The notes beneath the pieces are model-generated. The model worked only from the letters and a program-made list of their open reading frames with translations, ran no database searches and was not told the origin of the DNA. A stretch of DNA of 63,957 bases, counting the filler, from Vezdaea acicularis (Eukaryota): the NCBI GenBank assembly GCA_026025075.1. It is 3 parts of 3 records of this genome, joined end to end, with 100 filler letters (N's around TTAATTAATTAA, not from the genome) between each part and the next. Parts side by side here need not be neighbours in the genome. Positions count along the whole stretch, not along the records: positions 26,892 to 53,506 come from JAPEUI010000177.1; 2 more parts are not named here. One strand, 5' to 3'. Positions within the stretch are counted from its first letter, which is position 1, and the number at the start of each line of letters is the position of its first letter. Below, one piece after another: positions 26,792 to 46,375 of this stretch. The translations under genes and the position numbers were made by a program.

Positions 26792-26891
26792 NNNNNNNNN
26801 NNNNNNNNNNNNNNNNNNNNNNNNNNNNNNNNNNNTTAATTAATTAANNNNNNNNNNNNNNNNNNNNNNNNNNNNNNNNNNNNNNNNNNNN
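26792..26891. other. Artificial contig linker / assembly gap
   Basis: N-run + TTAATTAATTAA (stop codons in all six frames) + N-run, 100 nt in total. Confidence 0.97.
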
Positions 26892-27030
26892 GTCACTGGC
26901 TCTGTCGTCACTGGCTCTGTCGTCGCTGGCTCTCGAAGTCCAGTATTTCTGTTGTCGCTGGTTCTGTGGTCGCTGGCTCTCGATGTCCAGTATTTCTATT
27001 GTCGCTGGCTCTGTGGTCGCTGGCTCTGTC
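26892..27030. repeat. Tandem array of GTCRCTGGYTCT-based 15-bp and 32-bp units at the contig end
   Basis: Seven copies of the 12-mer core at 26892, 26907, 26922, 26954, 26969, 27001 and 27016. Confidence 0.9.
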
Positions 27031-27280
27031 ATCACCAGTAGAAGAAACATCGTTCAATCATGGGGGCAATGGAGTTGGGGATTACAATCAGGTTGGATGG
27101 GCGTCGGGAAAGATTATGCATACGAGGCACATATATCATTTATGAGCAAATAGGTTGATTAGCTACTTCTAATTGTATGTAGTCTAATTTTGATGGATCC
27201 TGCTACGTTATGTTAGTTCCTCGAGTAGTGATAGCTAGAGAAGTGGCTGATAAGCCGTACGCACCTCGAACGTAATGTCC

Positions 27281-27677
27281 CTATTCTTCAAGCTCCTCAT
27301 CGTAGTCTTGCAAGATTGACTCTACCACCTGCTTCAAAGTTGGCACGAAGTCAAAAGACTTCTCCCAAACTATGACATTCCCAGTGCCCACAACCTTGGC
27401 TTTGACTGCCGGAAGTTTAGTAGAGCACAACATCGCTTCCATCGACCACCGAGGAATTTTGGACAATTTCGGTGAAGCAATCTGAAGTTTCCAGGCGCCT
27501 TCTTCGGTCAGTCCCAGCCCTTCCTCCTCCTCGTCAAATCGACCACGGTCGCTCAAGTACTTGATCCACTCGACGACGCCACCGGCCTTGGAAGACTTCA
27601 GGGCAGACATCGTTGCCCTCTTCTAAGGATAGTTCAGCTTTGGAAATTGAGATTTGGGCTTTACTTACGTTAGGCAT
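27281..27677 (-). CDS. Small orphan protein (~116 aa, 2 exons)
   Basis: ATGCCTAAC|GTAAGT...CTGAAC...TAG|AAGAGGGCAACGATG splices in frame onto ORF 27281-27610. Confidence 0.55.
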
Positions 27678-27921
27678 CTTTAGATTCGTCGGAGAAATAA
27701 CGTCAGACAATAAGGTATCGGTTGTCGAAAGGTTATCGTAGAGTAGCTGAAGTGAAGTCGTCTATCGAGTTGGTGAAAGGTGAAAGTTGAAAGCTGCAAG
27801 CAATTCTCGGAGTGCGTATTAGTAGTCATTAAGCGAGGGAGTGAATGCCCCATTTGAAATGCGTGAATAGATGCCCTATGTCACATGCTTCATTGAGAGG
27901 CCCTTCCTAATCTACAGTTTC

Positions 27922-30805
27922 CTATATGACTTGTGGTGAATCGAGCTCTTCTACCGCAGCCAAAGCTTCCTCGAATTGGCTATCATCGTCGGATTGTTCT
28001 TGCTCCATGTACGCCGAACCAGCTTCAACCGTCATTGATTTATCGCTATGAAGCTGTCGTATAACTTCAAACGCTTGTTCAGCAAGCCCTGGAATCTTCA
28101 GTCATTCTGTAAGTTACGTGTGAGAATGACATACTTCGCAGCGTTATCAGGGGTCTTCCGTAAAAACTATCCCCTTTCTTTGTGATCGGGCCTTTGGACA
28201 TCTCTAAGAGGTCCATGATCAGATCTAGAGCTCTTGATCGAAAGCTGGGCTGGCTGAGACGAGGCAAGATTGACAAAAGCTCCGACAGTTGAGATTCGGT
28301 CCAGTCTAAGGTACGTTGTATCTCATTCTTCAGGTATTGCAGTTCTTCCGTCGCACGGTCTTGCCGGTACAGTGCTTCAACACTACTTATCATTTTCGCA
28401 GAGTATTTCCAGGTTGTTGCTTTCCCTACAGAGCTCGCTCGGCAGCTTTCAAACTCCCAGAGTGGTAGGTTACAACTTTTCTCGAGATTATCTAAATCGA
28501 AAGTATCCTTGTCTATTAGCTGTGGACGACAATATTCGGGTAGGCTGACACAGAGCTTGTTGAATTCGTCGACCTTCACTTCGATCCGTGGTAGTCGTCG
28601 CTTCAGCGACTGCACAAGTTTTTGTGCGCCTTTATGCCCAGTAATTCGACTGCGAATCGATTTCAACTCCACTGCGCGAGCTGATATCTGCTGATGAATG
28701 GTTGATTTGAGCTTTTCTAGACGATTCCAAGTATCGAAAGAGCTGTAGGTGGCCCACAACTGTCCTTCGATCGCCCAGTCCGCTCGACACTGGTTGTTCT
28801 GCCCCAATGCCTCGTCGGTTGCGGATACAGCTTGCGCGTATTGACTCTCCAAGTTTTCAATAGTAGGCATCCAACAATCTGTAGATTCAGCTCGCCGGAG
28901 AGTGAACCGGTCGAAGCTTTTTCGTAGTTCTATTTCGAGCTCTCTTTCCCGTCTGATGCATTGATAAACATCGTTGAAAGGGCGTTGATCAAGATAATCA
29001 TCAAAGCAAGCCTCAGTTGCCATAAACCAGCTCCGTTGAGCCTGTGCTTCCCTGCTCAATTCCGTTAACACAGCCTCGCGAGTTACCTGTTCACTTTGCT
29101 CCTTTATTGACAAAACCAAGTCTTCAATCACCCTTGAGCTCTCCTGTAACTCTTGATGGCATTTGTCAAAGCGCTTTTGCAGATTAGAGAAAAGTTTAAC
29201 TCGAAGACGGCGGGCTTGGTAGAGACCGTGCTGATCAAGCAGAATGATCCTCGACTTTGCACTTGACTGCCGGCCAACCGATACCAAATGTGCCATTGAT
29301 GCCCAATCGCGCTCGCAGCCTTCCCCGTCCGATCTTCCAAGCCCTTTGACCCTCAGTGGCCCCCACAAAAGCTGACAGCGAAGCTCATGGGAATAGTTGT
29401 GAAAAGCGTTCAAGCTAAGCTGGACACGCTTATGTAACACTGGGTCAGCAAATTGCAAAGATCGTTCAAACTTACATGCAATGTCGTATTGAACATGAAT
29501 TGCAGCGTTAGTAGGGCACATGTCCACAACAGACTTAATGAGAGAAACCGTTGAGGAGCTTCTCTCGCCTGCAAAAAGGTTGAGATACCGTAACGGAATA
29601 CTATGTCGACAGACCGCTCCCATGACACCGGTTTCGTCAAGATTTGCCATCGATTTTGGCTTGCGTTCTGCAGAGGCTGTAGCAAACGTGTGGTTACAGC
29701 CACCTAAATTCTTGCGGGGCTGACTATCCACTTCATCCTCCGTAGAGCTCTCCGTTATGAACAGTTCCGGAGTATAGTTTGACTCGCGGCTAGTGCTGAT
29801 CCATTTTCGCCGTGAATGCTGAAAGTTACCGTCAACAGAAAATACGCAGGGCAAGTCATCGTCATAGCTTCGATAGAAACAGGCTGGACAGAGACTTGCC
29901 AGAGTGTTCTGTTTGAATACGGCTCCGCTCATTCGTTCCAACTCTTCAGTACAATCTAATTGACATATACGATCCAACTCGAGCCAGTTGAAATAAGCAT
30001 ACTCCCATGGTTTTTTGAATTCTGGAAGACTTTGACGTGTCAATTTCTGTAAGAAGTCATGAAGACCGTGAGCCCAGGCGTACTTGGAGATACTGCCAAT
30101 CATTATGATGTTATGGAAAAAGCGAATCAAATCCATGGAAAAGGCTATATTCGGCTTTAAGGGCGCTATACATCATCAACTTCTACACTAACAATGTTGG
30201 ATATGGGTGAATCACTTGATGGAAAATAATTTCTTTCGATCAGAGAAGTAGCCGCGGCATCACAATCGCACCATTTCAAAACTGTTTTATTAGCTCCTAC
30301 ATGACATTAGCATTGTCATCAGGCTTGAACTAGGATTTTAAGCCTCACCTGTAAGGCTTACAAGCCACACAGTGTGGGAGCCAGCTTCACAGCTCCTAGC
30401 CAGACATGCAGCTTTCTTGCCTGTTTTCATAGCCTGCAAAAAGGGCGCTTGCACCTTTTCCCAGTTGGCGTCCCTGCGTCTTCTATTCTCTTCGTTGCTG
30501 CGCAGTAGAGGAAATAACAATGGCAAAGTCTCTCCGCTCTCAGAAGATTCAATAGCTCCAGCATTTAAATCAGACGTTGATAGATCTAGATCCTCCGACA
30601 GCTCGTTATCTGCCAAACGGGATCCGTCACCATTCTCAAAATCCATTAGGGAATCACGGTGGAGGGCTTTTGATTTACGAGCGTGGAGTTGTCTTGTGAT
30701 AAGCGGTTGAAGATCTTCCCAGATAGCTCTTCTTGTTTGTTGATTCCATCTCAGAGGCTTTTTGAGACCTGTAACGTAGAACGGAGTTCCTTTTCGTCGT
30801 CCCAT
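27922..30805 (-). CDS. CxC1-KDZ (Kyakuja-type) transposase, multi-exon
   Basis: Spliced CxC1-like WCDC...NYFPSTPLKPNIAFS; CPAC; SVDGNFQHSR; LDETGVMGAVCRH; GER; YDIACKF; FHNYSH...CQ; GLGRSDGEGCERDWA. These are the diagnostic KDZ RNase H-fold motifs, followed by a helical C-terminus. Confidence 0.9.
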
Positions 30806-31533
30806 CACAGGCAATGTTGCAGAGTATTTCAATTGTGCTATGGAAGAATGATCCGCACGACCCGCACACGAAGAAGATGGCCAGTAGGATTTGAGATTGA
30901 TGAGTTCTTGATGTTGCTGTGGAGGTATGAGTATGCTTGACTAGTTGACATTCAAACCTGATCAATACTAAACTGAAATAGTAGCATTCTAAGGCACTTT
31001 TCCATTTTCTAGGGTGAGTATCGTAAGAAGAACATAGATGAAAGCGTACTTGCCCCGGGAAGAACTTTTAATCTATCTTGTCCAGAATCTGGGTGCAGTA
31101 TTTAGGCATATATCAACAGAATGACAGAATGCGTATCTGTAGATAGATTGTGTCTATAGTCATGGATCAATTTCCTTGTCTTGATTGTAGCTATTGTACT
31201 GCGGGCGTCATCAGAAGGCCGCAATGTGGCGGCATATATTTTAGGTTATGGGAATGTCAATTTAATTAACTTGATGAAAGCGCTTGAAGCGCCACTAGAT
31301 TAGCGGCTAGCCGAGGGATTGACAATGGAGCGCATCTTTACAGTTTCATCGTTAGTCAACAGCGTCTTTGATTTTCCCTTTCTTAAACACTTCTCTCCCT
31401 ATGATACTGGACCTTGCTTCACCTATTCAAAGGTGAATACTTAAACTTGCTTCTCCCATGAGAAGTCACTGCTTAAGCCACCCAAACTTTTACAGCCTCC
31501 TCACTGACTAACTTTCAATTCTCCTCTCTCAAA

Positions 31534-33207
31534 ATGGGCTTCAAACCTGAAAACCCGTATCGCGTCGGCCGAACACTCCATCTTGGAACTGATACCAGTG
31601 AGAATTGGTTTCTCAAGGTGACCATCGAGAAAGTTTGGCCAATAACTCAGGCTGTCGTCATGCTAGTAGGGGTTGATGAAACATCCAACATTTCTGAACG
31701 TCTTCCAAAGCGAGCAATTTTAAAGATGTATGATCGGCGGTATACCAACAATATACGTAATGACCGAAAGTTTGATGAGTACAACCTGTTATCAGAGCGT
31801 CACTATCAGTCTCTAGTCACGGAAGGCTGGCCGTCTGCATGTCATGATAGCTATGTGGACCAACTCCTCACAAAGTTGGAATCAGAAGTCTCTGAAGGCG
31901 AGGACGATGATCAGGATGAAGATGATCAAGATTTTGATGAAGAGGAAAATCAGGTTTTTCAAAGAGTTCGTGCATGGAGCCAAGAATCATTACTTCAACA
32001 AGATATCTTGGACGTTTGGGCCACAGAGCATGCCACGTATGAACGCCTTGTGTCAATGCAAGGTAACGAAATACCAACCCTTTATGCTGCTAAGCTATTC
32101 GATGCTCCCGACAAACCATCTGATCTTCCTTTCCTGCCATGTGGTGGACTTTTGCTGGAGTACATTGACGGACAAAGCCTGGAGGATGCTGCACAACATA
32201 TGCCCCCTTCAACATTCAACAAGATTTATCAATCGATCCTGTCGACAATTCACAAGATGGTCAGGCTTGGGGTTGTAAATCATGACACTGCTGCGAGGGA
32301 TTGGCTATTGCGTAAAAGCGTTGAGTTGGGGTATCAGCCAGTACAAGTTGATTTTGGCCTTACTCAGATACAAGAGCATGAAAGCCTCCAGGAATGGCTT
32401 GCTTTTGCTGCTGGAAGGTCTCAAGAAGACCGTATTGTATTCACGATAAAGAAGCTTCCTGCTTGTCAACAATTGCGTCCCAAACATAACTATTATCGAT
32501 TCTATCAGGTATGAATATTTGCTTGATTTATACAACGCTTTCTTAGGTTTCTTGAGATTTCTAACTTCTAGAAATAGGATCAGCCAGCTTCTATGGACGA
32601 TTCCATGTTTGATGTAGGTTTGATGGTATCTTTGGACAATAGCAAAACAAACTCATCGCCTGTCGTTCACGCACAAGCATCTTCTATCGAGTCTCTATCC
32701 AGCCAAGATCGATCCGCTTCAAGCTATGCAGGCATGCAAACACCACCTGACTCACTATACAAATATGATCAAAAGAAGACAAGGCCAAGATCTCGATCCT
32801 CACCGACTTCAGTTGCCTCAGGAGAACTTGATTTCCATAAGCATGCCGAAGGCCCTATGCTGTTCTTGTCAGCCGAAAAACAAGAGGACATACAGCATAG
32901 GATTCGCGTCTGGCGACAGGAGGATATCACCATCCAACTTGATGAAAACCTTGGAGGTGAAAATGACCGTGCACATCTAATAGATTTAGAGGACGAACCA
33001 CCCCTCTTAGCTTTGTCACATCCGCGTCGTCGTAGACGTTCTGTGGCTAGCTGTAACATAGCGGGTAATCGTACCATTGATAGTACAAAAGAGATGGCAC
33101 TCACTCCTAGACCATATGACTCAACAAGTCACCATGACAAGGCAATGCCTAGAGCGTCCGATAGCTCTCAAAGCCCAAAAGCCAACACTGAGGAATATCA
33201 GCCTTGA
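31534..33207 (+). CDS. Atypical protein-kinase-like protein with Ser-rich tail (intron 32509-32577)
   Basis: AILKMYDRR, E..TYERL..MQG..IP.LY, GLLLEYIDG, VVNHDTAARDWLL, VDFG. GT at 32509 and AG at 32576-77 join in frame to ORF 32593-33207. Confidence 0.75.
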
Positions 33208-33997
33208 AAATCACTGCTGGGCAGCTCGAACAACGTCCAATCCATACAAAGAGTAGCTATCAAGAATTTAAGAACGCGAGTGAATTAATAATGGCGAACC
33301 AGGTACGAGATGGCTGTTCTGGTATGAACGGGACATTGGACCATCGCTCTACAGCTCTGGAAAGAGTGAGGGATGTTGTCAAGCCAAGACTTTGAAGTAT
33401 CATGATAAGTTCACTAGCATCACATAATGATGCACTGATGCTTGCTGCCGAGTTTAGTGTGTTAGTTGGGCCTGCAAATCATCTGAGATTGTATTCTTCC
33501 TGTTACGAAAAGAAAGTTTGCGTTGCTAGCTCTTTCTGTTGAATAATTCAATGGATACCACTCATATATGCCGCAAAATCCATCTGCTGACTATGCAAAT
33601 GCGCGTCGAAATAATTGATGGCATGTATTCGGGTTCGATGAAAATTTGTTACAGCAAGCTCGAGAGGGATATGCAGCCAACCTCTGTGAACATGCGTTCT
33701 GAGTACAGGGAAGTTGTCTTGGTTGACAGCATTGAGAACCTAGGAAATGGTCTAGATCATGCACTTCCAGCGCGTTATAAGAAGACGAGGCCGCAGGTTG
33801 CAGACTTTTTTTGAAAGACCCTCGGAGCATCTCAGGAATACTGTTACTATGCATCACCAGTTTTATCATATTGCCGGAAATCAAAGCAAAAAGGAGTCTT
33901 AGCTCTTTATTGTAAGAGTACTGTGAATGACTGCATGCAATTGGAGCGCAAAAAAGTCCGGTGGCGTAGGTGCCCGGGCGAACAAGAGCGGGCTCAA

Positions 33998-34682
33998 TGC
34001 GCTTGAAGCGCAATAAGCGGAAGCGAATAAGAGCTGGCTCCGAGCGCTCCAAGCGCATGTAATCTAGGCAAATCCTCCGTTTTTGCGTGTAGTTAGGCTT
34101 TACGCGCTTGACACGCATGGAGCCAGCCCTATGTTCGCATGGACACCTTGCGCCTCATGCGCATGCAATCTAGTCCGAGGCGGAGACGAAGGGTTTGCCA
34201 AAGCTTCATGCACTTGAAGTGCGTAAAGCCAGAATGCTTACTTCTGCGCTCTATGCGCTTCAAGCGCATGGTGTTCTTATTATCTCCAAAGCATCTTGCG
34301 CTTGAGGCGCATGGAGCCAATTTCCGTCCACTTGAGCTCCTTGCGCTTCAAGCGCAAGATGCTGCCAAGATGATAGGGGCTTCGTGCGCTTGAAGCGCAA
34401 GACGCCCCAGAAAGGCCAGTGGCGAACGATTCGTCCGGGCTCCTTGCGCTTGAAGCGCAAGAAGCTTGGTCGCGACCGAAGCAAGAACCGACGCTCGGGC
34501 GCCATGCGCTTCAAGCGCAAGATGCTGCCAAGATGATAGGGGCTTCATGCGCTTGAAGCGCAAAAAGCCCCCGAGAGGCTAGAGGCGAATGGTTTGCCTG
34601 GGCTTCTTGCGCTTGAAGCGCTGGAAGCCCAGTCGCGACCGGAGAGGAAGCCGACGCTCGGGCGCCACGCGCTTCAAGCGCA
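33998..34682. repeat. Array of 14 palindromic TGCGCTT(G/C)AAGCGCA repeats with 43-46 or 60 bp periodicity
   Basis: Copies start at 33998, 34043, 34103, 34149, 34209, 34254, 34297, 34342, 34385, 34445, 34505, 34548, 34608 and 34668. A 163-bp higher-order unit is duplicated at 34342-34504 / 34505-34667. Confidence 0.92.
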
Positions 34683-34717
34683 AGACGCTGGCTTCATCCG
34701 GTGAGTGTTTGGCTGAG

Positions 34718-34772
34718 GCCCCTTCACGAATAGGCGGATGAAGCCGCTTCGTCCGCCTATTCGTGAAGGGGC
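34718..34772. repeat. 55-nt near-perfect palindrome/hairpin
   Basis: GCCCCTTCACGAATAGGCGGATGAAGC-C-GCTTCGTCCGCCTATTCGTGAAGGGGC: 27-bp arms with one mismatch. Confidence 0.95.
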
Positions 34773-35692
34773 TCGCTTAGCAGCAACCGCATGCCAAGGG
34801 TGCAGAAATACGCGAAACCACGTGGATCATTATCAAAGGTTCTCGCATCTAAGAACTGATTGGTGAGCGCTGAAGCTGTACTAGCCCTTTACCCAGTATT
34901 TCTGCTATTTGTGAATGATGCTCTGAGAAGTATGTTGGCTGAGAACCGCATAACCAAAAGGGTTATGATTCTATCGTTCTCTCTACTCCTACCGACGCCC
35001 CTCACACCACAGGCATCATGTCGCTAAACCCGTCAAAGAACAAGGAGCTGAGTCGATAAAGCCACATCCACCCAAATACGACCAGAATAGTATCGGAATT
35101 AGTGCTAATAAATACCTGAAAGGCATTTTGAGATTTCATTCTAGGTTACGCGTGAAAAGGCGCTTCGTTGTTTCCTCCACAACGTAACCCGTAACCCCGA
35201 TGCACGCCTCCTCCATGAACCCGATCTCGCTTATCGGCCCACCCCTGTAAGTCAGGAACGTCATTGTATCGACCGGGTTCTCCCTCCGAAGATCGCGTTG
35301 AACGAGTTATGTCACATTGCAATCACATCACATCGCAGCACCGCATGCGTTTCAACCAAGACACGTATTTCGTCATGATGTAGGTCATTGTCTGCCCAAA
35401 TGCGGAAATATAGGGTGTTTGCTAGTGTCTGGTACTCTCGTCATGACTCTGAAAGGATGAAGATCAGGACGACTCAGGGTAAGGCCTCCCAAGTAGGTCA
35501 AGACGGTGATGTAAGGAAAGCATTGAGGGAGGTAGATACGTAGCTTCTGACGTGACGCTTTGTGAAGCGAATATATAAATCGAGTGAGATATGTTTTACC
35601 TCTCATCTCTCTTGATATACTTGAAAATCATCTCAATCCAAACCCGCTCAAAGATACAATTAATCTACTATATCTATAAGCTTCCCGCAAAA

Positions 35693-35991
35693 ATGTCCAC
35701 AGACTACGCCCGTTCCGGAGAAAACCACATCCCCGTCCAGAGTGACGATGCTCCAGTCGAGGATCCCATTGATGAGGGTACTGCCGACAGCGACCAACAA
35801 TTGGGTAGGCCGCCTCTTAGTATCACTTTGATGATTGATACTAACTTTATTTAGTGAAGGACGATAATGAGGCGATTGACAAGAGCAACATCGTGGAAGG
35901 TCGTACCAGAGGTGCCGGTCCAAAGGGTGGCTATAGTGAGCCAGATGAGGATGACCTTCCAGTGGAAGTGAAGGAAGGAAAGGAGGTGTAA
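35693..35991 (+). CDS. Small acidic protein with CHZ (histone chaperone)-like motif, 2 exons
   Basis: MSTDYARSGENHIPVQSDDAPVEDPIDEGTADSDQQL|VKDDNEAIDKSNIVEGRTRGA...YSEPDEDD, containing the ID.SNI..GRTRG motif. Confidence 0.7.
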
Positions 35992-36133
35992 ACCTACCAC
36001 CAACCTACAGATATAAAGGTGGATGATGCGCGAAACATGTGTATGAAATATTAGACGAATGTCCTTTTTTGAAGTGGTTTCGATTTCCGGTTGTCTATTA
36101 AGTAACGTTCGCTGCTGAGTTAAATTTCAAATA

Positions 36134-39100
36134 TTATTGTAATTCTCGAGTGATGAGGCCAACATGGTGCACGTAAGACTATCACAAATTAATACAGCAA
36201 ACAGTGGAGCGTTCGAAAACTTACACCTATTGTGTAGTGGAATCCAACGACTTCTTCATTAATCGAACATTCTAACCTAAAACTTAAAACCTCTTCTTCA
36301 TTGGGACTTTCCTGGGTATATATACGCCAATCAACAATAGAATGCTGTTGGCCATGGTTCGTTTGCAAAGTCATTTCTACAAGACGATTTCCAGCGTCGC
36401 GTTGCTGCATGCAGATGTCGACCGCAATGATACGCTCACCACCAAGTCCTTTGAATAAGCTGGTCAATATTACTTTCATTCTCAAATGAGTAAGGTCAAC
36501 AGTACCATTTATATTCATTACTTGCTTTGGGACATGCTTCGCGAAGCGGTCTTGCCAGTCTCCGAGGATAATCGTGCCCATTCTCGGACTGCCATGGAAT
36601 TTGATACCTTGTAAACCAAACCTTCCAGGGACGTCATTTACATAAGCTTCAATGCTTTGGAGTAATTCTGGCTCAAAAAGAGTAAAAGATTTGATTGGCT
36701 TCGAACCGTAGTAAGTTTGGGGGGGATCTTCATCCTGTAATTGAAGACCCCGCGGTATCAAGCTTGGGTCTCGCCCCCATGTTAGGGTGTGGTCGGCGCC
36801 GAGCTTAATCACGGCCGGTGCATTCGGGGCGGCCGGTGGCGTCAAAGAGTCGAGCGAAGATTGTTTTTCAATCTCATCATAGATAAGTCCAATACGATCA
36901 CAGTTTGAAGGCTATTAGCAATTAGCTTCATAAACTTCTAATGGTATTTCGTACCCATACATCAGAATAGCTCATGTATATTCCAATCGCCGTTTGCCCG
37001 TTGGGCGCCTTCTTTTCTATAATGACACCATCCTCCGGAGAACCAAACCATGGACTACACCGACCAGTACTAGTGCCAAGCTGATTCTTCATTAGCCACG
37101 ACCCATATTCGTCTTTTTGGGTACTTACCGCTACTGCACTAACGGTGCCGAAGACTGGCTCGGGCATGAAAATAGTAGTTATTCTCTCATTTTTGTGAAT
37201 GAGGAAGAGACTTTCGAATGCTGAAGCTTGGCCTAAGGGTTCGTCGTCCCAACTATCTCCTCGACGGAAACGTAAGCCGCAGAATCGGTTTCGAATAGAG
37301 TAACCCTTTACACCAGTCAAAGGTCCTTCCGACTCGCGCTCAAAAGCATCGGAGAGTACGTAGAACCTTTTTAGAAGCGATTGGTCGGCTTTAGCTGATG
37401 GCCGTCCAAAGTATGGAGAGCCTAAGTTGTATTCTTTTGCTGCCTCGGAATCATCTTGAATCAAAGGACACCAATCTATAATCCTTTCCGAGGTAAAAGT
37501 AAATTGAACTCCTGCCAAGAACTTCGCTTCAACTTCCATGAAGTGATTTTCTGACATTTTTTGATTCCCTTTGAGGAACTAGTTCTCTGTTAGATGTCAT
37601 TGTCATGGACGTGATTTTCGGCACCACTTGCCAGTAGATTTGGAAGATATTGATTAGACCAAGACGTGTCTTGAGGCCCATTGACGCTGATCGCAACTCC
37701 TGTAATTCGATCTCCTATGTTAGAGATCCGCTGAAACTCTTGTGCAAGAGCAGTGTCAGTATTTCCGAAGACGGTGTCTTGTCTTTTCCCGGAATAGCCA
37801 AACTTGATTCCCTCCATTTTACCGTATATAACGACATGTGAAATAGGTTCTGCAAATGACACCCAACCAGTGAACTTAGCGTGAGGCCGAATTTTGATCG
37901 CTTTGCGAGAGTCGCTGTTCTTAAGACCCTTGACGAAATTCGGCGGAGGGGGGCTGTCTACCCAAGGTAATAACTGCTCATCCGTCTCAACGAAAGGAAG
38001 CCGAAGTTCTTGCAACTCGTTATGCTGGGCAGGGTAAATGCTAAGCTGGCTGCTTGACTCCATCCGTGCTTCTTCGGGGCAGCTGATGGGTTCTGTGATT
38101 ATACCTAATTGTATGATGCGTCTAACCTACGGCTTGTTAGATATATCTGCCAGAAGGGGCTCAGCGTACCTCAGAGCTGGCGAGACAGTGGAAGCCAATG
38201 ATTGGATTCTTCAGAAGGGTCAGATCGCCTAGCCTTTTGGTATGAAGCTTGACGACTCGCTCTAACGCGAATATGCTCTGGGTTCCTAGGTAACGATTCC
38301 CGAATGGGGGACTTCTAGATCCCGACGAAAGTATGATCTGCAATGCTTAGCTATATAGCAACTGCTAATGTCATTTACTAAAACTTACCTGCAAACCATG
38401 AACCCCTAAGGGTCCATAGTTGATTACCGCACCGTAAATATCATCGCCAGAAGGAATCTTGAAAGATTGGCTGGGCTTGAGATCGCAGAAGCCTAGAGTA
38501 TCAGTCCGGCTGCCTCGGCCGATACTATACTGAAAGCTAAGCCCAACAAGGTAAGAGTTCTTAAGATAACCTCTAACTTGGATAGTCCTTCGGCTTTGGC
38601 CAAAAAGGTTGAGGTGCGGACGAATCATCCATTCTGAAGCACGGGTTCTCCAGTCGTCCATAATTGGACCTTCTCGTTCTAAAAGCAAAACATTGTTTGG
38701 TGGAGGGAACTTCCACATCGAAGCCTCTGCATGGGACAGGGGGACAGTCACTGGAGGTTCTGTCACATGTAAATCAGTAACATCGAATGTGATCGGGAAT
38801 CTTTGTTCCATCATGGCAAAGGTTTCGATGAAGCCCAGGGAGTTGACGAACACGCTCACCCCAGCAAGATGGCGATATTTCCGAGGACAGACTAATCGAC
38901 GGACAGGGTAATCCCAGTCACCAAAGGGCGGCGACAGTATCTCGTCATCGGCAGCTTCGACCGGTGTAGTAGTCTCGTTATCAAACACAAACCGAATGCC
39001 GCTAAGGCTACCATTCTTCCAACAGACGTAAAAACCTATCAGCACCATAGAGTCTGCAGGGTGTGGTCGATACGTCTCGCATAGGAGGGTCCGACAGACT

Positions 39101-40913
39101 CCAATCTGCTTGCAAAATTGGGTTGAATCCCGATACGAAGTTGACTTATACTCAGCAGAAAACTCAAGGCCACGCACATGGCGTGTCACAGGATCCAGCC
39201 AAATTCGAATCTGCTTGATCGAGGAGACCAGCTCATTAGGTCCAAGTGGCTCCGCTGACGAAGATTCGATTGATAAACTAGCAGAGTTCTCAGTTCCGGG
39301 TTCAGATGTGCCACTATCTGCCCCAGAATTCCGGATTGGATTGACGAAAAGAAGCGTCTCTCTCCAGCCATCGCTACCAGACAACCTTCCCACCGCGCCC
39401 CTTACGATTGAGGTCGCATCCGCCACGGCTTTAGGCATTCCTCCATTAACGTGTAAGTTCTCGCTTGATCTCTCAACTAGGTCATCCGCTATTGGCTGCA
39501 AAATCTTCCAGATGCGACGCCTATTGCGAAGGCCGTTGTCGACCTTCCAGCTTCTAGAGACATACTCAAATATATTTTTCCAATCAATGCGGGGCTGTCC
39601 ATGGGTTCGGTAATCTTCGGTCTGTCGAAGCAATTTGGGTAGGTATGACATCTCTTCTCTTATGAAACGACGATATTCGCGCTGAGGGATGGGCATTATA
39701 CTTGCCGGGACCGAGGCCATCCGCCATCGAAAAGTTTCGACGCAACTTAAATATTTGAGGATTTCAACAAGTATTTCAGATGGTAACAACCAGAATCGGT
39801 CCCTTGTGTCACTTTTTAGAGGCTTAGCCTGGCCAAACGTCTTTTCCGAGGCAATTTGGAGTTCAAGGGGAAGATGCAACAATGGCGATTGTGATGGATT
39901 CGCAACGAGCCACTAGACTTGCATTAGTGGATATCAACATAAATAACTATTCCACGTACATGTAAGCTGTCGATGTGAAGCCATCTTAGCCCTTCTCCGC
40001 AGATTTGTGCCTCTCTGTAACCACCATTGATGACTGAGGATACGGATAACCGAGTGATCACTTCAAAAGAATCACCACGGCGAAGAGCTGCGGTGGTTAA
40101 GTCAGACGGCTTCCCCGTATCCGCAACTGGAAGGAGATCGCAGAGGTAATTCCATAGCTGATCTGTGTCCATGTGCTCGTCGTCATCTTCAGATCTGGAG
40201 TCGAGCTCGCTAGTGATTCCTCGTCTTGCCTTGCAGACCTGGAAAGCGTGGTCTAGTATATCCCAACACTCATCGTGAAAGGGAAAGCTACTGATTCGGA
40301 ACTTTTGGTCGATTCTATCGGGTTCCTGGTACACATGAAAGCCATGGTTTCGACCAAAGAAGGGCAAGCCTTCCTCGTCCTCCTCTTCAGATTCAGGTTC
40401 ACTGTCGACAGATGCATATGCGTCAGCCCAAGACGCATCCTCTCTCATCCTCCCTCGACCGGTGAGATAGGTCGACTGATCATTGGCCAGTTGCTGCAGA
40501 CCATCTTGAGGATGTACGCGTGCGTGTCGATGTATTAGTGCACGGATAATTCGGATCCACTTGGTATCGTTAGATTCCAGCTTCGACGCATCATAAGCTC
40601 GCCGCGTTTCAGTTGATACCAAAGGTCCGCTTGCTGCGGTTGCCCCACGAAGCTCAAGGCTTAAGGGACTCTTGACCTTGACATTTGCAGTTATCTCAGG
40701 CAGCAATACGGGTTGATAAATATTGAAGTTGTTTACAAAGTGAGCGCCTCTAAGCTCGCGCGGAGATTCCTCCTCCTCTGTTCTGGCCTTTTCCGCGAAT
40801 CGATGTTGGCCTCGAGCAAAATCGGCTGTTCGGACGCGAGCCAGCGGGCCGCCGCAAAATGCGCAAAGAAAATGAGTGCGGTAGGAGTCCTCGGACCAGA
40901 AAGAGCCTTGCAT
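36134..40913 (-). CDS. Large multi-exon F-box protein with repeated jacalin-like beta-prism C-terminal domains
   Basis: N-terminal CAFCGGP...FPFHDECW; F-box DRFWLLPSEILVEILKYL; DW...GLRNRRRIW; repeated L.GI.F / GE.I..V / TNHG motifs across ORFs 39924-40913, 38371-39882, 37590-38063, 36928-37557 and 36189-36845. Confidence 0.7.
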
Positions 40914-42525
40914 CTCAGGATCGGACCTTACAATGATCGTTAGCTCTCATGATCAACCTCTGAACAAGATTGAGGATTGACATTGAGTTAAAGCACGAGA
41001 GCTCCGCCATGACTGGCAGTAGCTATCTTCAAAATTCCAGCTCATATTATATCACATTCTCTAGTGAAGAACGGGATATGGTAGACAAAAAAAGGTACAG
41101 GGATATCCACGCAGTGGACACCAGCTGAATGCGCCACTTGCCCCGCTAACCCGTTCTGAGCGTGACCTACTTTTTCTTCACGAACCCTTCCACTGTAGGA
41201 TCGACCGGATTCCATACCTATTCGTCTACCCAATTGCATCCTGCAATGCATCTGATCGACTAGGATCGTAACAATTGATGACGTCGAACCCTGTGATTGG
41301 CAGCAAACCCGGCATCTCTCCAGCCTTGCCATACCGGCTGATGATTGCCTACGTTTTCATGTTAGTCTCCATAGCCAATGACAGGGTTATATACCCAGAG
41401 TCCTGGCTATCACATTGACGAAACGCTGGTAGGAAATCTCTTTCGCCAGATTTCCTACCTCTTGATTTGTGACATAACATATGTGATTAATCAAAAAGGT
41501 TTATATCATATGCACAGCATCCCTTCTAACCGTCCATGTATCCCATGGAAACACCAGTCCAAGCCACCCCCTCATTAACAAACCGAATACGCTTGCTGTT
41601 GTTAGACGTTAAAATGAAGGAGAGCCCTGAGAATTTCTCGACCGCCATATATACGGGCTGCTGAAGGGCGTGCGTCACCCTTTATCCAGGCATCCTCTCG
41701 AAACGTTTTGAAAACCTTGGCTCAAGGATTAACCCACGACGATGTCTGTCAAGATTCTATCGACCCAGCTCTGTTCCCCAAAAATGTAGCAGGGCGGAGT
41801 TGAATTTAAGTTTACGGAATCAGAGACTATATTAGGCGGAGAGCACTACTTTGCTTTAGCAGCCGTCAACCCACGCGATGGCGGCCCTAGGGTTTAAGTT
41901 CCCGCACGTGCGCCAACGTCATGTGTCAAGCACATCGCTGCCGTCATTTGATTTTCTAATCAGTTCCTATCCTAACCTGCATCGCGAAAATCACCAACAC
42001 CCTTCCAAGTAAAAGGAGTTGGCTCCTACGATATCCCTCAAAATCGGCAGGAAGTCTATTATGAGGGAGTAAACCTATTACGAAAGACAAGCCATCTATG
42101 TAAATACAGCATAGCGTACTTTAGCATGTAGATGTTTGAAGAGGAGATAAAGACTGACGTCGACGAAGGGAGAACGACTCTAGCAATCCTCTTAAAGCAT
42201 TCAGCAAGGTTACTAGGGGAAAACTTCGCAGATCTCGATTTCTCGGAGTCCGCTGGTTGAACGACAAGTCAAACATAAGACTCCTCACCTATCTAGTGTA
42301 GTGAGCGAAGTTGTGAAAGGAGCGTGGAGGAGCGGCTATTCACGTAGCCCACTTCACATCTTTCTTATATGGCCGCCATGTAATAGCAACCCCTCGAACT
42401 CCTAATCTCTGCAATCACCATGAACCTCCCGTTCAGTTGCCCATGCACAGGAAATTTACTTGTACTCACATAAACAGCTATATGAAGTCTAGCACGGCGC
42501 CGCCTTCAACTCCAACTAACGCACC

Positions 42526-43413
42526 ATGTCTGCATATCGCTCGCCACTTATCGAAACCCTTGATAGTAATGGCTACGTTATCCTTTCTGCATTCCTCACA
42601 GGTAGCGAGCTTAGGCGGCTACGACTGGCTACTAGTCGTACTATATTATTAGCCCGCAGTGGACAATGGCCACACCTTCGGACACTCCCGAAACAATTTC
42701 CACCGTGGTCTTCAACAACAACTAATGGGATCTGGGGCATACAACACCTACTACATCCTAGCCTACCCGACTCAGCGGAGTTTGCTAGGAGCTACTTCAG
42801 TGATACTATCATCGATACGGTAAAGGCTCTGCTTGGTCTTGCCGACAATGATGGAGACGACGTTTTGGTTATGGAGCTATATAACCTCCTAATTACCCCT
42901 GATCGGAATTTCGAGCTTCGTTGGCATAGGGACGACATACCACCCTCTGCAGCAGCAGTGGAAGAACTCGAAAGGCTTGGGAAGCCTGCATGGCATGCAC
43001 AATGGAATCTTGCGCTCTATGACGACGAATCCTTGGTCGTTGTTCCTGGGAGTCACAAACGCGCGCGCACTGCGGCTGAGATTGCGGCAGAACCTTACGA
43101 AGCAGACATGCCAGGCCAAAAGACTGTTGAGTTAAAAGCTGGCGACTGTGTGTTCTATAATAATAACATCTTGCATAGAGGAGTGTATGACAGTACGATA
43201 CGGAGAGAAACTTTACATGGGAGTATTGGGCATGTTCGCGGCTCTAGAGTCCGCGCAAGAAACGTATTACAGCATGGCGTCGGATCGTGGATCCTGCAGG
43301 CTGATTTTATATCATTGGAAGAGAGGCAAAAGACAAGGGCTGAAAGCATGAGAGAGAACCTTATTAAGATGGGAGCCGAGAATATTGATAGTGCATTCTC
43401 ACAAAACGATTGA
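42526..43413 (+). CDS. Phytanoyl-CoA dioxygenase (PhyH)-family Fe(II)/2OG oxygenase
   Basis: L..NGYVIL, WHRDD (HxD), LVVVPGSHK, LKAGDCVFY...ILHRG, R.TLH. Confidence 0.88.
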   Translation: MSAYRSPLIETLDSNGYVILSAFLTGSELRRLRLATSRTILLARSGQWPHLRTLPKQFPPWSSTTTNGIWGIQHLLHPSLPDSAEFARSYFSDTIIDTVKALLGLADNDGDDVLVMELYNLLITPDRNFELRWHRDDIPPSAAAVEELERLGKPAWHAQWNLALYDDESLVVVPGSHKRARTAAEIAAEPYEADMPGQKTVELKAGDCVFYNNNILHRGVYDSTIRRETLHGSIGHVRGSRVRARNVLQHGVGSWILQADFISLEERQKTRAESMRENLIKMGAENIDSAFSQND

Positions 43414-43555
43414 ACAGGTGCTCTGGAGAGGTGTAGAGATTGAGGTAGAAGCAAACACATTATTGGATGGCGTAACGGACACCCCCTATCTATCCGGCCT
43501 AGGAGGGATGTGGGGTGACTGCGGGTAGTGTTTAGAGGGCGACGATCGCGCCTAG

Positions 43556-43792
43556 TGCACGGGGTGTTAGCTATGCCTGTTCCGCAAAGAAGTGGCGTCC
43601 GATTTTCGTGATTCATCAGCACCACGACTACAGACGCGATCGGAATTTAAAAGCTTATAGAGGCATCTCAAGGTGGAATAAGGTTTCTGTTGCCACTGAT
43701 AAAATTGTTTAAAGCGAAAGGGTGGACGGTGGAAAATTGGGAAAATCGGACGCCACTTATTGGCAGAACAGACATAGCTAATACCCCGTGCA
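43556..43792. mobile_element. MITE-like element, 237 bp, with 52-bp terminal inverted repeats
   Basis: 43556-43607 TGCACGGGGTGTTAGCTATGCCTGTTCCGCAAAGAAGTGGCGTCCGATTTTC versus the reverse complement of 43741-43792: 47/52 identical. Non-coding interior. Confidence 0.8.
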
Positions 43793-43807
43793 TAGGTCAC
43801 GTTCGTA

Positions 43808-46375
43808 TTACAAATCCCTGATCGCCCCATCGAAAGCGTCGATAATCCGGTCGTACATCTTGACAGTATCGCTTGCTGGTGGTGTTCCCCAAAAGATTGA
43901 TCCGTCTGAAGTGATGGGAAACAGGATGCTGCGAAGTCTTTCCGCCAGAGGCTTGAGCTTCTTGAAGGACGTGGAGAACTCGGCCACCAGTTTTCTGAAA
44001 TAACCCTTCTCCATGTGCGCACGTTTCATAGATGCAATATTGTCATAGGTGCCACTGTACCAGCTACGTAAGAAGTTTTTTGGCATCCTCCAGTGGACGT
44101 ATTCGCTTGGTACTCGAGACGCACTTTCGAGGCTGCTCGAGTCCTCAACATCTTCGACTGTACCCTTGTGGCGAACGCATATCCATAAGAAGACGTAGAA
44201 GAAAGACTCAAGATCGTGTCGGAATGTGTGACTGAGACCTTCGAGCACTTCAATGGCCATGAACTGCAATGTGCCGGTTTGACTTCCAGCTCCTCTGCAA
44301 GATGATCCTCGCTCCTTCGCTAGATCTAGGTCGATTAGGATGCCTGTTGGCGTCTCACCCCTTGCAATGACGATATTGTTCATGGAAATGTCTCGATGAA
44401 GTATTTTCCCATCGATCAAAAGTGACTTGTGAGCCAGGATGGCATCACGTAATACTTGAAGAAATTCTTTGATGGAATGGAATTCACCAAACGGTCTTCC
44501 AGCGGGGGAGACTATCAGGCAACAGTAGGCTCGATCTTCATAAGGCTCGTCCTCATCGCTCATAAGACTATCCGGGTGAGAATCTTGAGCGTTGGAGTAA
44601 AGGATCGTTTCGGGCTCGAGCGGCTCTGGTTTGGGTGTCTCATCACTTAAACGTCTTCTCTTAGTGCTGCTGCTCTCCCGCTGGACTACATCCCTTTTTC
44701 TCTTTCGACTTGAATTTGTAGCCACGCTAATGAGGCTAAATTCCAATCCTCTTGGAAGGCTTGCGCTCTTCTTCAGCTTTCCTCTTAAGCTCCCTTTCTC
44801 CCCCGTTTGTGAAGGACTTCTCTCGCCCACGGGACCGTTTAGCCAAGCACTTTCTCTTGAGTTCTGACGTGGCCTTTGAAACGACAAGCCACTCCGCAAG
44901 TTTGCGATAGTGTCGTGGCATTCGCCTGTAACGATATCTTGATGGTCGACCCATCTCGCGATCCCCTTAACGCCTCTGTCTTTTGCCAATCTCAGTAGTT
45001 CTCCTTCCCGTCGTCGTTTTGCTGATGGCCAAGAGAATTTGACGACGTACTCCCATTCTATTGCGCGCTCTCCCTTACCTCGATAACAGGTCGTGCCACG
45101 ACATACGATGCCGTTTTTAGAAGCAATGGGCGTGTCCTCGAGATAGATCTTTGATCTGTGAGACATAATATGGCTACCAATGTTATCACGCTTGATAAAG
45201 GTATTCAGTCCGAGCTCTTCATCCGACATGAGGGCATAGCCGGCAAGAACTCTCACAAAGTGTTTTGGATACCCGTGGATATCAAAATTTGGCGAGCTGT
45301 ATGTCCCAGACCTGTCGAACAAATAGAGTCTCATCCTACTTCCACACAAAGTGTACCCATGCGTAAATCTCCTACTTGGCTGGGCTCCAAAAACTTCCCG
45401 GGCGTATCCTGCCAGTTGCAGTAAAGTGTCCTGTTGGCCATCGTCGTCTGGATTGGACTTTACTACACCGATAACAAGCACGCAAGACCAGTCGCGTTTC
45501 CCAGAAGACATAACAGCATCTGAAGGGGCGAGGAAGTGATCCAGCTTTTGATTTCGTTCGGAGCCAAGTAGTCCGTGCCAGTTTGACGTGAAATAGGATC
45601 GATCCAATCCTGCCAGAAACTTATCTTGAAAGGTCTGCAGCCAGTCTAAAAGTTTGCTTTTAGTCGCAGATACTGGGAATTCCATCCATCTGTCTTTCTC
45701 GCACCACTCCTTGGACCTTTCATACTTCTCATTGGCCGCATCCGTCCAGGCCTTCCCCTGGAAGTATCGATCGAAAAACCCCTTCACGTCGTTGTACGTA
45801 CAGTTTCGCAGCTCCTCGGTGATCTGTTGATTAATCTCGCTGCGCTTTTGCTCTAGACTTCTCCGCAACGATGAAGACCTACAGGGCGTATCGAGGACCC
45901 ATTTTTCTACAGCGGTGGGAGGAGTGGCGTTCCTTATGGAAGTGGTGAGGTCAAACACGGCAGCCCAGATATTGACGTCGCTCTGTCCGGTGAGGACTGC
46001 CTTTAGGAGCGGGCGAACAAGCTTTGTACCTGCTTCACTAGAAGAGAGGTGAGGAAGGAGCATAACATCGCGAGAGAGCAGCCCATCTGATATCCTTGAA
46101 CGAAGTGATCGAACGGCGGGTTGACTTAGCAGGGCCTCACAGAGATCCAATATTGCATTTTTCGTATCTATTCAAGATTAGCAGCGTATTGATCTTACTG
46201 AACGCCAATGACCTTTGTTTGGCCATCGAGACGTGAGCTTGTCTACTATCTCGGGGGTGTCGACACCCTTGCCCTTCTCGTGCTTGGACGTGAATGCGGT
46301 GCAGAAGTCTAGAAGCCCGTCTTTCAGAGGGTGTTCACTGATTATCGCGAGCTCCTTTGATGAAAGCTGAGCCAT
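43808..46375 (-). CDS. Fungal-type protein kinase (FunK1/Pkinase_fungal), 2 exons
   Basis: W..VLVIG..K, QLAGYAREVF..QP.RRF.HG, LFDRSG, ELGLNTFI, IVCRGTTCY, VVKFSW, LHRDISMNN, LIDLDLA, TGTLQFMAIE, HTFRHDLESFFYV. Confidence 0.93.

What the first reader, a model, noticed from the sequence alone, without database searches (positions are those of the whole stretch)
33998..34682. Regularly interspaced palindromic repeat array (14 x TGCGCTTSAAGCGCA) near the KDZ transposase
Seen: a 15-bp dyad repeated at only two spacing classes (43-46 or 60 bp). The dyad is conserved while spacers diverge, and degeneration increases toward the left (internal) end. One copy has a compensatory pair (TGCACTTGAAGTGCG). 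One spacer (34269-34296) is an inverted relative of the AGATGCTGCCAAGATGATAGGGGCTTC spacer. It superficially resembles a CRISPR array, but the spacers are related to each other. Inference: phased binding sites for a dimeric protein, most simply the transposase (subterminal repeats); alternatively a structured RNA processed into units.
Basis: partly seen in the sequence, partly recalled or inferred. Interest (0 to 1): 0.8.

Follow-up and report, generated by a model that had tools for sequence, protein, structure and literature searches.

The report
Palindrome array beside a fungal transposase
A real, regularly spaced array of 14 DNA palindromes plus one long hairpin lies next to an intact KDZ transposase gene in a fungal contig; it probably marks the edge of that mobile element, but this is not proven.

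Summary
Fourteen copies of TGCGCTTSAAGCGCA lie at 33998-34682 with only two spacing classes (43-46 and 60 bp). There are 19 hits against 1.75 expected.

The palindrome is longer than described, about 27-31 bp (GGCTYC-N-dyad-N-GRAGCC). The right half is 2.1 copies of a 163-bp higher-order unit. A hairpin with 27-bp arms follows at 34718-34772.

One isolated perfect dyad (31280-31292) sits between the diverging KDZ gene (30805 to 27925, minus strand, intact, CxC1+KDZ) and a kinase-like gene (31534-33204). Public contigs break at exactly 34802/34803. The listed contigs left of that break are near-identical to the window, and those to the right differ by about 1.3%.

Mismatches show no RNA strand bias, and no reading frame is open. 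No second array, TIR or TSD was found, and no fungal genome was available to test association with other KDZ copies.

Best reading (about 0.4): a cis-acting subterminal repeat region of a KDZ element, bound by a symmetric dimer. Main rival (about 0.3): a neutral palindromic minisatellite.

The parts
33998..34682 (.). Array of 14 palindromic dyads TGCGCTTSAAGCGCA. The central base, which gives orientation, reads G C G C G C G C G G C G G C. Spacers are 28-31 or 45 nt.
34342..34690 (.). Right half of the array: 2.1 tandem copies of a 163-bp higher-order unit (dyad, spacer A 28 nt, dyad, spacer B 45 nt, dyad, spacer C 45 nt). Its units form the longest hairpins.
   Evidence: period 163, 87% matches; D1, 83%; (-9 to -16.2 kcal/mol as DNA for six of seven units, -7.9 for the last).
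33936..33950 (.). Degenerate fifteenth dyad (TGCAATTGGAGCGCA, 3 mismatches), 62 bp left of the first array member.
34718..34772 (.). Long near-perfect palindrome (27-nt arms, 96% complementary, 1 nt between), 36 bp after the last dyad and 30 bp before the break at 34802.
   Evidence: I13; -33.3 kcal/mol as DNA, z -11.3, 0 of 200 shuffles as good.
34797..34809 (.). Structural break between 34802 and 34803 (...AGGGTG | CAGAAAT...). Contigs of a 1.3%-diverged form stop matching exactly here.
   Evidence: table 8 (X1 record 3 and X3 record 16 both start at 34803) and table 7 (X3, 33 loose letters before 34803); (those letters are not in the window).
31280..31292 (.). Isolated perfect 13-bp dyad GCGCTTGAAGCGC. 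It lies 475 bp upstream of the KDZ start (30805, minus strand) and 242 bp upstream of the kinase-like gene start (31534, plus strand).
   Evidence: 0.01 exact matches expected in the whole window.
27925..30805 (-). Intact KDZ transposase gene with introns. The 911-aa product has a CxC1 zinc-cluster domain and the KDZ catalytic domain.
   Evidence: PF18758, E 6e-40; CxC1 1.8e-12, KDZ 1.1e-39; tblastn map of P0038.
31534..33204 (+). Companion gene for a 534-aa protein-kinase-like protein with no Pfam hit. A homologue with 53% identity lies on a contig of the same length (19185) as a 66% KDZ paralogue.
   Evidence: for the KDZ paralogue.

Best explanation
The array is the cis-acting, subterminal repeat region at one edge of a KDZ-family DNA-transposon-like segment. 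This is the 5' side when read in the transposase's own orientation. The segment also carries an intact CxC1-KDZ transposase gene and a kinase-like companion gene.

Each unit is a two-fold symmetric site of about 27-31 bp (GGCTYC-N-TGCGCTT-S-AAGCGCA-N-GRAGCC). It is suited to a protein dimer, most simply the element's own transposase acting through its N-terminal zinc-cluster region. Fourteen such sites at 43-46 or 60 bp spacing would load many dimers next to the end. The single dyad in the divergent KDZ/kinase-like promoter would let the same protein sense its own level.

The array changes length by unequal exchange and flips modules by recombination between dyads, which read the same on both strands.

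SHOWN: the array, its extended DNA-level symmetry, the better conservation of dyads, the isolated dyad, the intact transposase gene, and the break at 34802/34803.

INFERRED: that the break is an element end, that any protein binds the dyads, and that this protein is the transposase.
For: (1) The motif is far beyond chance and is confined to this gene neighbourhood. There are 10 exact 13-mers against 0.01 expected: 9 in the array and 1 at 31280, between the KDZ and kinase-like gene starts.

(2) The symmetry extends beyond the core. Watson-Crick pairs make up 88 of 98 core cells and 71 of 140 outer cells, against 25% at random centres. Distances 12 and 13 from the centre pair in 12 of 14 units. 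Five of 12 pairs change on both sides, which 6 of 500 shuffles reach.

(3) There is no RNA strand signature: 17 G-T against 19 A-C mismatches.

(4) Between the two 163-bp copies, dyads differ at 1 of 45 positions and spacers at 23 of 118 (Fisher p 0.005).

(5) Contigs of a diverged form stop matching exactly at 34803 in two runs. Among the 31 of 266 records that were listed, those left of the break differ from the window at 2 of 3956 letters, and those from 34803 to 43173 differ at 194 of 15027 (tables 7 and 8; my sums).

(6) The transposase gene is intact (911 aa, CxC1+KDZ).

(7) A 66% KDZ paralogue and a 53% kinase-like homologue both sit on a contig of 19185 bp. None of the 14 homologues of the neighbouring F-box-like gene does. 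This suggests the two genes travel together.

(8) Published KDZ elements are 6-11 kb and carry extra ORFs. The Kyakuja lineage has CA..TG termini and no TIRs (passages of 10.1101/2024.08.15.608186; section 3.2 of PMC12730594). The break here reads ...TG|CA....
Against: - Only one array exists in 64 kb. There is no cluster of whole or half sites left of the KDZ gene.
- No inverted copy of 33500-36200 occurs anywhere in the window (blastn with word size 7).
- The 7-9 letters after the break have no exact copy between 15000 and 34000. The two 1-mismatch 7-mers followed by CA (22625, 33875) are about what chance gives (my estimate is 1.2).
- The 30 loose letters beside the break in run X3 are not in the window, so the other form is not a simple empty site. 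They contain TGAAGCGC, the right half of the dyad, so that form may carry a rearranged array rather than lack the element.
- Spacer A is as well conserved as the dyads (1 of 28). Fourteen near-identical dyads could also stay alike by gene conversion without any selection.
- The 'compensatory' copy at 34209 is two CpG transitions.
- No other KDZ locus could be inspected, and none of the three KDZ papers I searched contains the word 'subterminal'.
Confidence: 0.4

Rival explanations
1. A neutral palindromic minisatellite. A short palindrome-bearing unit was amplified by slippage and unequal exchange, and modules were inverted through palindrome-mediated template switching. The dyads stay alike only because they homogenise one another. 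Its position near the KDZ gene is incidental, or it is a relic of old transposon DNA.
For: - It has higher-order tandem structure (163 bp, 2.1 copies).
- A contig in two runs goes back 100 bp inside the array (34570 to 34471, table 5), which indicates a length variant.
- The left half is decayed: 11 mismatches in 7 dyads, with weak hairpins of -4.7 to -7.7 kcal/mol.
- Spacer A is as conserved as the dyads.
- There is no second array and no TIR.
Against: - A perfect isolated dyad lies 2.7 kb away, between two gene starts (0.01 expected).
- Dyads differ at 1 of 45 positions against 22 of 90 for spacers B and C.
- Symmetry in the outer arms is kept through paired changes.
- The array abuts a structural break and a step in divergence.
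Confidence: 0.3
2. A remnant or non-autonomous member of a rolling-circle element of the Helentron/Helitron2 type. Those elements carry 12-15-bp palindromic subterminal repeats, central tandem repeats and a 3' stem-loop close to the end.
For: - The repeat is a 15-bp palindrome.
- A stem-loop ends 30 bp from the break at 34802. The Helentron paper gives palindromes about 8-35 bp from the 3' end, palindromic subTIRs of 12-15 bp, and tandem repeats in some copies (passages of PMC4067079).
Against: - There is no TT target or T-run at the break.
- The hairpin arms are 27 bp, against 5-10 bp in the paper.
- The last dyad is 120 bp from the break, against 38-60 bp.
- No Rep or helicase domain appears in any of the 47 ORFs scanned.
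Confidence: 0.1
3. A transcribed hairpin locus: a long structured RNA cut into hairpin units or small RNAs, for example one feeding RNA silencing of the element.
For: - Both strands fold far better than shuffles (z -10.7 and -12.5).
- There are weak sub-threshold resemblances to miRNA precursor models (best 27.7 bits against a gathering score of 67).
Against: - Any array of palindromes folds well, so the z-scores carry no weight.
- G-T and A-C mismatches are equal (17 against 19), so neither strand shows wobble tolerance.
- No Rfam family reaches its threshold.
Confidence: 0.08
4. A cluster of sites for a host dimeric transcription factor or chromatin protein that regulates the flanking genes, unrelated to transposition.
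For: The motif is a symmetric site, and one copy sits 242 bp upstream of the kinase-like gene start and 475 bp upstream of the KDZ start.
Against: - The array lies between the 3' ends of two converging genes (33204 and about 36192), not in a promoter.
- The motif occurs nowhere else in 64 kb that includes more than 15 ordinary genes.
- A full-text search for the motif found only one unrelated paper.
Confidence: 0.07

Closest known systems
[quoted passage not shown]
   Same: Many copies of one short motif, in both orientations, packed into a few hundred bp just inside an apparent element edge, next to a transposase gene. A further copy lies near the transposase promoter.
   Different: Here the motif is itself a long palindrome at two fixed spacings. 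Only one end carries it. No TIR or TSD was found, and binding is untested.
Characterised KDZ elements: Cryptococcus KDZ1-3 and KDZx1, and Kyakuja families of Agaricomycotina (passages of 10.1101/2024.08.15.608186 and 10.1101/2025.05.19.654958; section 3.2 of PMC12730594)
   Same: A CxC1+KDZ transposase, additional ORFs of unknown role inside the element, and a size of several kb. Kyakuja has CA..TG termini without TIRs, and the break here reads TG|CA.
   Different: KDZ1-3 have TIRs of 139-241 bp and 8-bp TSDs, which are absent here. None of those texts mentions subterminal repeats or palindrome arrays. This host looks like an ascomycete, whereas those are basidiomycetes.
Helentron / HINE / DINE-1 rolling-circle elements (passages of PMC4067079)
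   Same: Palindromic subterminal repeats of 12-15 bp, internal tandem repeats, and a stem-loop within about 35 bp of the end.
   Different: No TT target, no Rep/helicase nearby, and a far longer hairpin. The repeat number is 14 rather than one at each end.
CRISPR arrays
   Same: Partly palindromic repeats at regular intervals.
   Different: This is a eukaryotic contig. Spacers are related to one another and occur in both orientations. The repeats also occur in both orientations, and there are no cas genes among the scanned ORFs.
Viral latent origins built from a family of palindromic protein-binding repeats plus a separate dyad-symmetry element, such as EBV oriP (recalled; an analogy of architecture only)
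   Same: A tandem family of symmetric sites for a dimer, followed by one large dyad-symmetry element.
   Different: There is no evidence of replication or tethering here, and no sequence relationship.

Membership tests
Subterminal repeat region of a DNA transposon | Several copies of a short motif within a few hundred bp of an element end | tested here: inconclusive
   Fourteen dyads end 120 bp from the break at 34802. That the break is an element end is inferred, not shown.
Subterminal repeat region of a DNA transposon | The same motif clustered at the other end of the element | tested here: not met
   There is no other cluster of whole or half sites in the window, only the single dyad at 31280.
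Subterminal repeat region of a DNA transposon | The motif is bound by the element's transposase | not testable with these tools
   This needs EMSA or DAP-seq.
Subterminal repeat region of a DNA transposon | The motif recurs in other copies of the same element family | not testable with these tools
   No genome is held. The two-dyad pattern found only unrelated prokaryote or phage-like loci in three collections. The DNA of the paralogues' contigs could not be reached.
KDZ transposon | KDZ catalytic domain with an N-terminal CxC zinc cluster | tested here: met
   P0038: PF18758 at 1.1e-39 and PF18802 (CxC1) at 1.8e-12. It maps without breaks to 30805-27925.
KDZ transposon | Terminal inverted repeats (139-241 bp in Cryptococcus KDZ1-3) | tested here: not met
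   No inverted match of 33500-36200 occurs elsewhere in the window; the best E-value is 1.4. Kyakuja families are reported to lack TIRs (PMC12730594).
KDZ transposon | Target site duplication of 7-8 bp | tested here: not met
   There is no exact copy of the 7-9 letters after 34802 between 15000 and 34000. The left end is unknown.
CRISPR array | Direct repeats separated by unrelated spacers, with cas genes, in a prokaryote | tested here: not met
   Spacers repeat with a 163-bp period and in inverted form. The genes are fungal. No cas domains appear among the 47 ORFs scanned.
Helentron/HINE | TT target with T-runs at the boundaries, and a Rep/helicase partner | tested here: not met
   The break reads GGGTG|CAGAA. 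No Rep or helicase domain was found.
Helentron/HINE | A stem-loop within about 8-35 bp of the 3' end, and palindromic subterminal repeats | tested here: inconclusive
   The hairpin ends 30 bp from the break, but its arms are 27 bp, and the nearest dyad is 120 bp away.
Kex2-processed repeat peptide precursor | One open frame through the repeats, under purifying selection | tested here: not met
   In one frame the dyad reads R-[L/F]-K-R. However, all six frames contain stops, and between the two 163-bp copies that frame shows 2 synonymous against 17 non-synonymous codon changes on the plus strand, and 1 against 16 on the minus strand.
Plain tandem minisatellite | Head-to-tail copies of one unit | tested here: inconclusive
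   This holds for 34342-34690. The left half mixes unit types and orientations.

The most novel reading that the evidence does not exclude
KDZ elements that lack terminal inverted repeats define an end in a different way: by a phased array of long palindromic sites for the CxC1-KDZ transposase, plus one long terminal hairpin. The same site in the transposase promoter would provide self-control. This would be a new end architecture for the KDZ superfamily, seen here in what appears to be a lichen-forming ascomycete.
Probability: 0.25. Interest if true: 0.6.

Novelty: new variant of a known kind. Interest (0 to 1): 0.4.

Why it matters
KDZ transposons were shown only recently to be active and to cause drug-resistance mutations in Cryptococcus. 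How their transposases recognise element ends is not known, and one lineage has no terminal inverted repeats at all.

A defined symmetric site repeated 14 times beside an intact CxC1-KDZ gene gives a concrete, cheap hypothesis for what the zinc-cluster domain binds. If the array is only a palindromic minisatellite, it is still a clean example of how palindromes invert and reshuffle tandem repeats, but it has little wider weight.

Tried and rejected
CODING REPEAT PEPTIDE. The dyad encodes RxKR in one frame. Rejected: stops occur in all six frames, and changes are mostly non-synonymous.

CRISPR-LIKE ARRAY. Rejected.

KNOWN RNA FAMILY. Only sub-threshold miRNA-model hits.

WHOLE-ARRAY RNA FOLDS. 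Strong, but uninformative for an array of palindromes.

GENOME-WIDE MOTIF TEST. Impossible, because no genome is held.

COLLECTION SCANS. I scanned with a two-dyad pattern.
- Metagenome contigs gave 2 loci. L001 is a phage-like contig, and L002 is a different repeat.
- Genome contigs gave 1 locus, L003, a bacterial repeat pair.
- Viral contigs gave 1 locus, L004, on a contig of the same length as L001.
- None is homologous to this array.
- A search for the KDZ protein in viral contigs found nothing.

PAPERS.
- A full-text search for the motif gave one unrelated paper.
- 'Plavaka' together with 'subterminal' gave 0 papers.
- The 2014 paper that named KDZ is not held, so what it says on element ends is unknown to me. 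Supplements of the KDZ papers were not opened.

SEQUENCING RUNS.
- No RNA holder was listed, so expression is untested.
- Run X3 gave no cover over 30212-34195 while it covers the right flank. A hole proves nothing, so I do not use it.
- Depth over the array and the KDZ gene showed no excess, but that depth is not a copy number.

SEARCH FOR A LEFT END.
- The 1-mismatch candidates at 22625 and 33875 are at chance level.
- A 14-bp-arm palindrome at 22757-22790 was noted but not linked to the array.

EARLIER FINDINGS.

Full report
1. THE OBSERVATION

The array is real. TGCGCTTSAAGCGCA matches 19 times at up to 3 mismatches, against 1.75 +/- 1.39 in 100 shuffles, none of which reaches 19.
- Fourteen matches are in register between 33998 and 34682: 7 perfect, 3 with one mismatch, 2 with two, 2 with three.
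- The other five are an off-register overlap (34617), two weak copies just to the left (33760, 33936), 25217 (3 mismatches), and 31279.
- The exact 13-mer core occurs 10 times against 0.01 expected: 9 in the array and one at 31280-31292.
- Start-to-start distances are 45, 60, 46, 60, 45, 43, 45, 43, 60, 60, 43, 60, 60.

2. ANATOMY

The central base S is the only asymmetric position, so it records orientation. It reads G C G C G C G C G G C G G C along the array.

The right half (34342-34690) is 2.1 copies of a 163-bp higher-order unit: dyad, 28-nt spacer A, dyad, 45-nt spacer B, dyad, 45-nt spacer C (87% matches, 83%).

The left half is a patchwork of the same spacer types, some inverted.
- Arms 34254-34317 and 34336-34399 are 80% complementary.
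- Arms 33998-34057 and 34297-34356 are 73% complementary.
- The left half is also decayed. Its seven dyads hold 11 mismatches against 2 in the right seven. Its units fold weakly as DNA hairpins, at -4.7 to -7.7 kcal/mol, against -9 to -16.2 for six of the seven right units.

The palindrome is longer than 15 bp.
- Oriented and stacked, the units give gGCttCa-TGCGCTTGAAGCGCA-nGgAGCCc.
- Watson-Crick symmetry holds in 88 of 98 core cells and 71 of 140 outer cells, against 25% at random centres.
- Distances 9, 12 and 13 from the centre pair in 10, 12 and 12 of 14 units.

A separate palindrome follows the array. It has 27-nt arms that are 96% complementary (34718-34772), and it folds at -33.3 kcal/mol as DNA with z -11.3.

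3. SELECTION, STRUCTURE OR DRIFT

Between the two 163-bp copies, dyads differ at 1 of 45 positions and spacers at 23 of 118 (Fisher p 0.005). However, spacer A differs at only 1 of 28, while B and C differ at 12 and 10 of 45. So the conserved module is dyad-A-dyad, not the dyad alone.

On an alignment of the 14 units, a 12-pair hairpin is 87.5% paired. Five pairs change on both sides, which 6 of 500 shuffles reach.

G-T and A-C mismatches are equal, 17 against 19. Neither strand behaves like an RNA that tolerates wobble pairs, so the symmetry is a property of the DNA.

The 'compensatory' copy at 34209 is two CpG transitions, one in each arm. Given one such change per arm, half the combinations would pair, so it is weak evidence.

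Fourteen alike dyads can also correct one another by gene conversion. Conservation alone therefore does not prove function.

4. NOT CODING, NOT A KNOWN RNA

In one frame the dyad reads R-[L/F]-K-R, a dibasic processing site, which suggested a repeat-peptide precursor.
- All six frames contain stops.
- In that frame the two copies differ by 2 synonymous against 17 non-synonymous codons on the plus strand, and 1 against 16 on the minus strand.
- The idea is rejected.

Rfam gives only sub-threshold miRNA-model hits, the best at 27.7 bits against a gathering score of 67.

5. CONTEXT

The window is a fungal contig. Ordinary genes fill 1-22 kb and 47-64 kb, including DNA polymerase alpha subunit B, TRAPP, eIF4E, GDA1/CD39, amidase, an EF3-like ABC protein and isocitrate lyase. 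Between them lie lineage-specific genes:
- KDZ (PF18758, E 6e-40);
- a kinase-like gene;
- an F-box-like gene;
- PhyH;
- a 'fungal protein kinase'.

The window's KDZ, kinase-like and F-box-like products fall in clusters with NCBI proteins named 'MAG: Vezdaea acicularis'. Those have locus tags ending 001878, 001879 and 001882, all on one 26615-bp contig. They map to the window without mismatches apart from intron gaps.

The host therefore looks like a lichen-forming ascomycete. This fits the 'moss metagenome' label of the four runs that hold the stretch.

Gene positions:
- The KDZ gene runs from 30805 to 27925 on the minus strand. It is intact and encodes 911 aa with CxC1 (1.8e-12) and KDZ (1.1e-39) domains.
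- The kinase-like gene (534 aa) runs 31534-33204 on the plus strand. The atlas places it among 'protein kinase domain-containing' clusters with a score of 0.98.
- The array lies in the 3-kb gap between the 3' end of that gene and the 3' end of the next minus-strand gene, at about 36192.

The KDZ gene is therefore near the array but not adjacent. It is 3.2 kb away with a gene in between.

6. LINKS BETWEEN THE ARRAY AND THE KDZ GENE

(a) The isolated perfect dyad at 31280-31292 lies between the diverging starts of the KDZ and kinase-like genes, 475 and 242 bp away. Nothing like it occurs elsewhere in 64 kb.

(b) A KDZ paralogue (P0003, 66% identity) and a kinase-like homologue (P0016, 53%) are each recorded on a single contig of 19185 bp. 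None of the 14 homologues of the F-box-like neighbour is on a contig of that length. It suggests that KDZ and the kinase-like gene move together while the right-hand neighbour does not.

(c) When public contigs were laid on 26892-46800, two contigs of a diverged form begin to match exactly at 34803. These are X1 record 3 and X3 record 16.
- The X3 contig carries 33 further letters that are not in the window.
- Among the 31 of 266 records listed, the eight left of the break (27830-32424) differ from the window at 2 of 3956 letters.
- The nineteen between 34803 and 43173 differ at 194 of 15027, or 1.29% (my sums from table 8).
- The listing is a selection of the longest pieces, so this is indicative, not exhaustive.
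- It means that the KDZ side and the right flank have different histories, with the change at or near 34802/34803. That point is 30 bp beyond the hairpin and 120 bp beyond the last dyad.

(d) The break reads ...TG|CA.... Kyakuja families are reported to end in CA..TG with 7-bp TSDs and no TIRs (PMC12730594, section 3.2). A dinucleotide is very weak evidence.

7. WHAT SPEAKS AGAINST A TRANSPOSON END
- No second array or half-site cluster exists in the window.
- No inverted copy of 33500-36200 exists anywhere in the window; the best E-value is 1.4. The characterised CxC1-KDZ elements of Cryptococcus have TIRs of 139-241 bp and 8-bp TSDs (passages of 10.1101/2024.08.15.608186 and 10.1101/2025.05.19.654958).
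- No TSD candidate better than chance was found.
- The loose letters of the other form contain TGAAGCGC, the right half of the dyad, two letters from the break (table 7). That form is therefore not a plain empty site. It may hold a rearranged array or a related element.
- A contig in X1 and X2 goes back 100 bp within the array (34570 to 34471). This shows that array length varies or was assembled differently.

8. WHAT COULD NOT BE TESTED

The two-dyad pattern found only unrelated prokaryotic or phage-like loci in the three collections. The KDZ protein found nothing in viral contigs.

No RNA run was listed.

The word 'subterminal' does not occur in any of the three KDZ papers I searched. The founding 2014 paper is not held, and I did not open supplements. 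'Not described for KDZ' therefore rests on those searches alone.

9. VERDICT

The most likely reading (0.4) is a cis-acting subterminal repeat region of a KDZ-type element. In this reading the extended palindromes are symmetric sites for a dimer, most simply the CxC1-KDZ transposase, and the promoter dyad serves self-regulation.

The rivals are:
- a neutral palindromic minisatellite (0.3);
- a Helentron-like remnant (0.1);
- a hairpin-RNA locus (0.08);
- host factor sites (0.07).

The array works like known subterminal repeat regions. Membership of that class is not established, because the second end, the TSD and the binding are all missing or untested.

Noticed in passing
window 43542-43806: An inverted repeat (66-nt arms, 83% complementary, 133 nt between) lies between the PhyH gene and the fungal-kinase gene. 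Many contigs from all four runs lie on it with loose ends on both sides (tables 3 and 7), so it looks like a dispersed MITE-like repeat.
   Followed up: no
window 27925-33204 and proteins P0003, P0016: The KDZ transposase gene is paired head-to-head with a kinase-like gene. A 66% KDZ paralogue and a 53% kinase-like homologue are both recorded on a 19185-bp contig, so the kinase-like gene may be regular cargo of this KDZ lineage.
   Followed up: partly
window, whole: The proteins are identical to proteins that NCBI names 'MAG: Vezdaea acicularis', a lichen-forming ascomycete. KDZ elements have mostly been described from basidiomycetes.
   Followed up: partly
window 22757-22790: A perfect palindrome with 14-bp arms (GTGCCTTGAAGAAT AA ATTCTTCAAGGCAC) lies about 530 bp upstream of the GDA1/CD39 gene. 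It shares only TTGAAG with the dyad.
   Followed up: no
window 26886-27041: Three to four tandem copies of a 47-nt unit lie next to two 44-base runs of N (26792-26835 and 26848-26891), downstream of the KDZ gene's 3' end.
   Followed up: no
window 35435-35470: A stretch of about 35 bp where contigs from three runs match and then run on into unrelated sequence on both sides (table 7). It is a short repeat shared with other places.
   Followed up: no
window 29860-29964 and 32186-32254: Contigs in X1 and X2 skip 103 bp inside the KDZ gene and 67 bp inside the kinase-like gene (table 5). These may be deletion variants or paralogous copies.
   Followed up: no
window 36192-40925: A large F-box-like gene (product 1074 aa, with a weak DUF7600 hit) is followed by two more minus-strand ORFs (36192-36911 and 36931-37578) with no family hit. 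Homologues at 38-42% identity occur in other lichen-fungus MAGs and in metagenomes.
   Followed up: no
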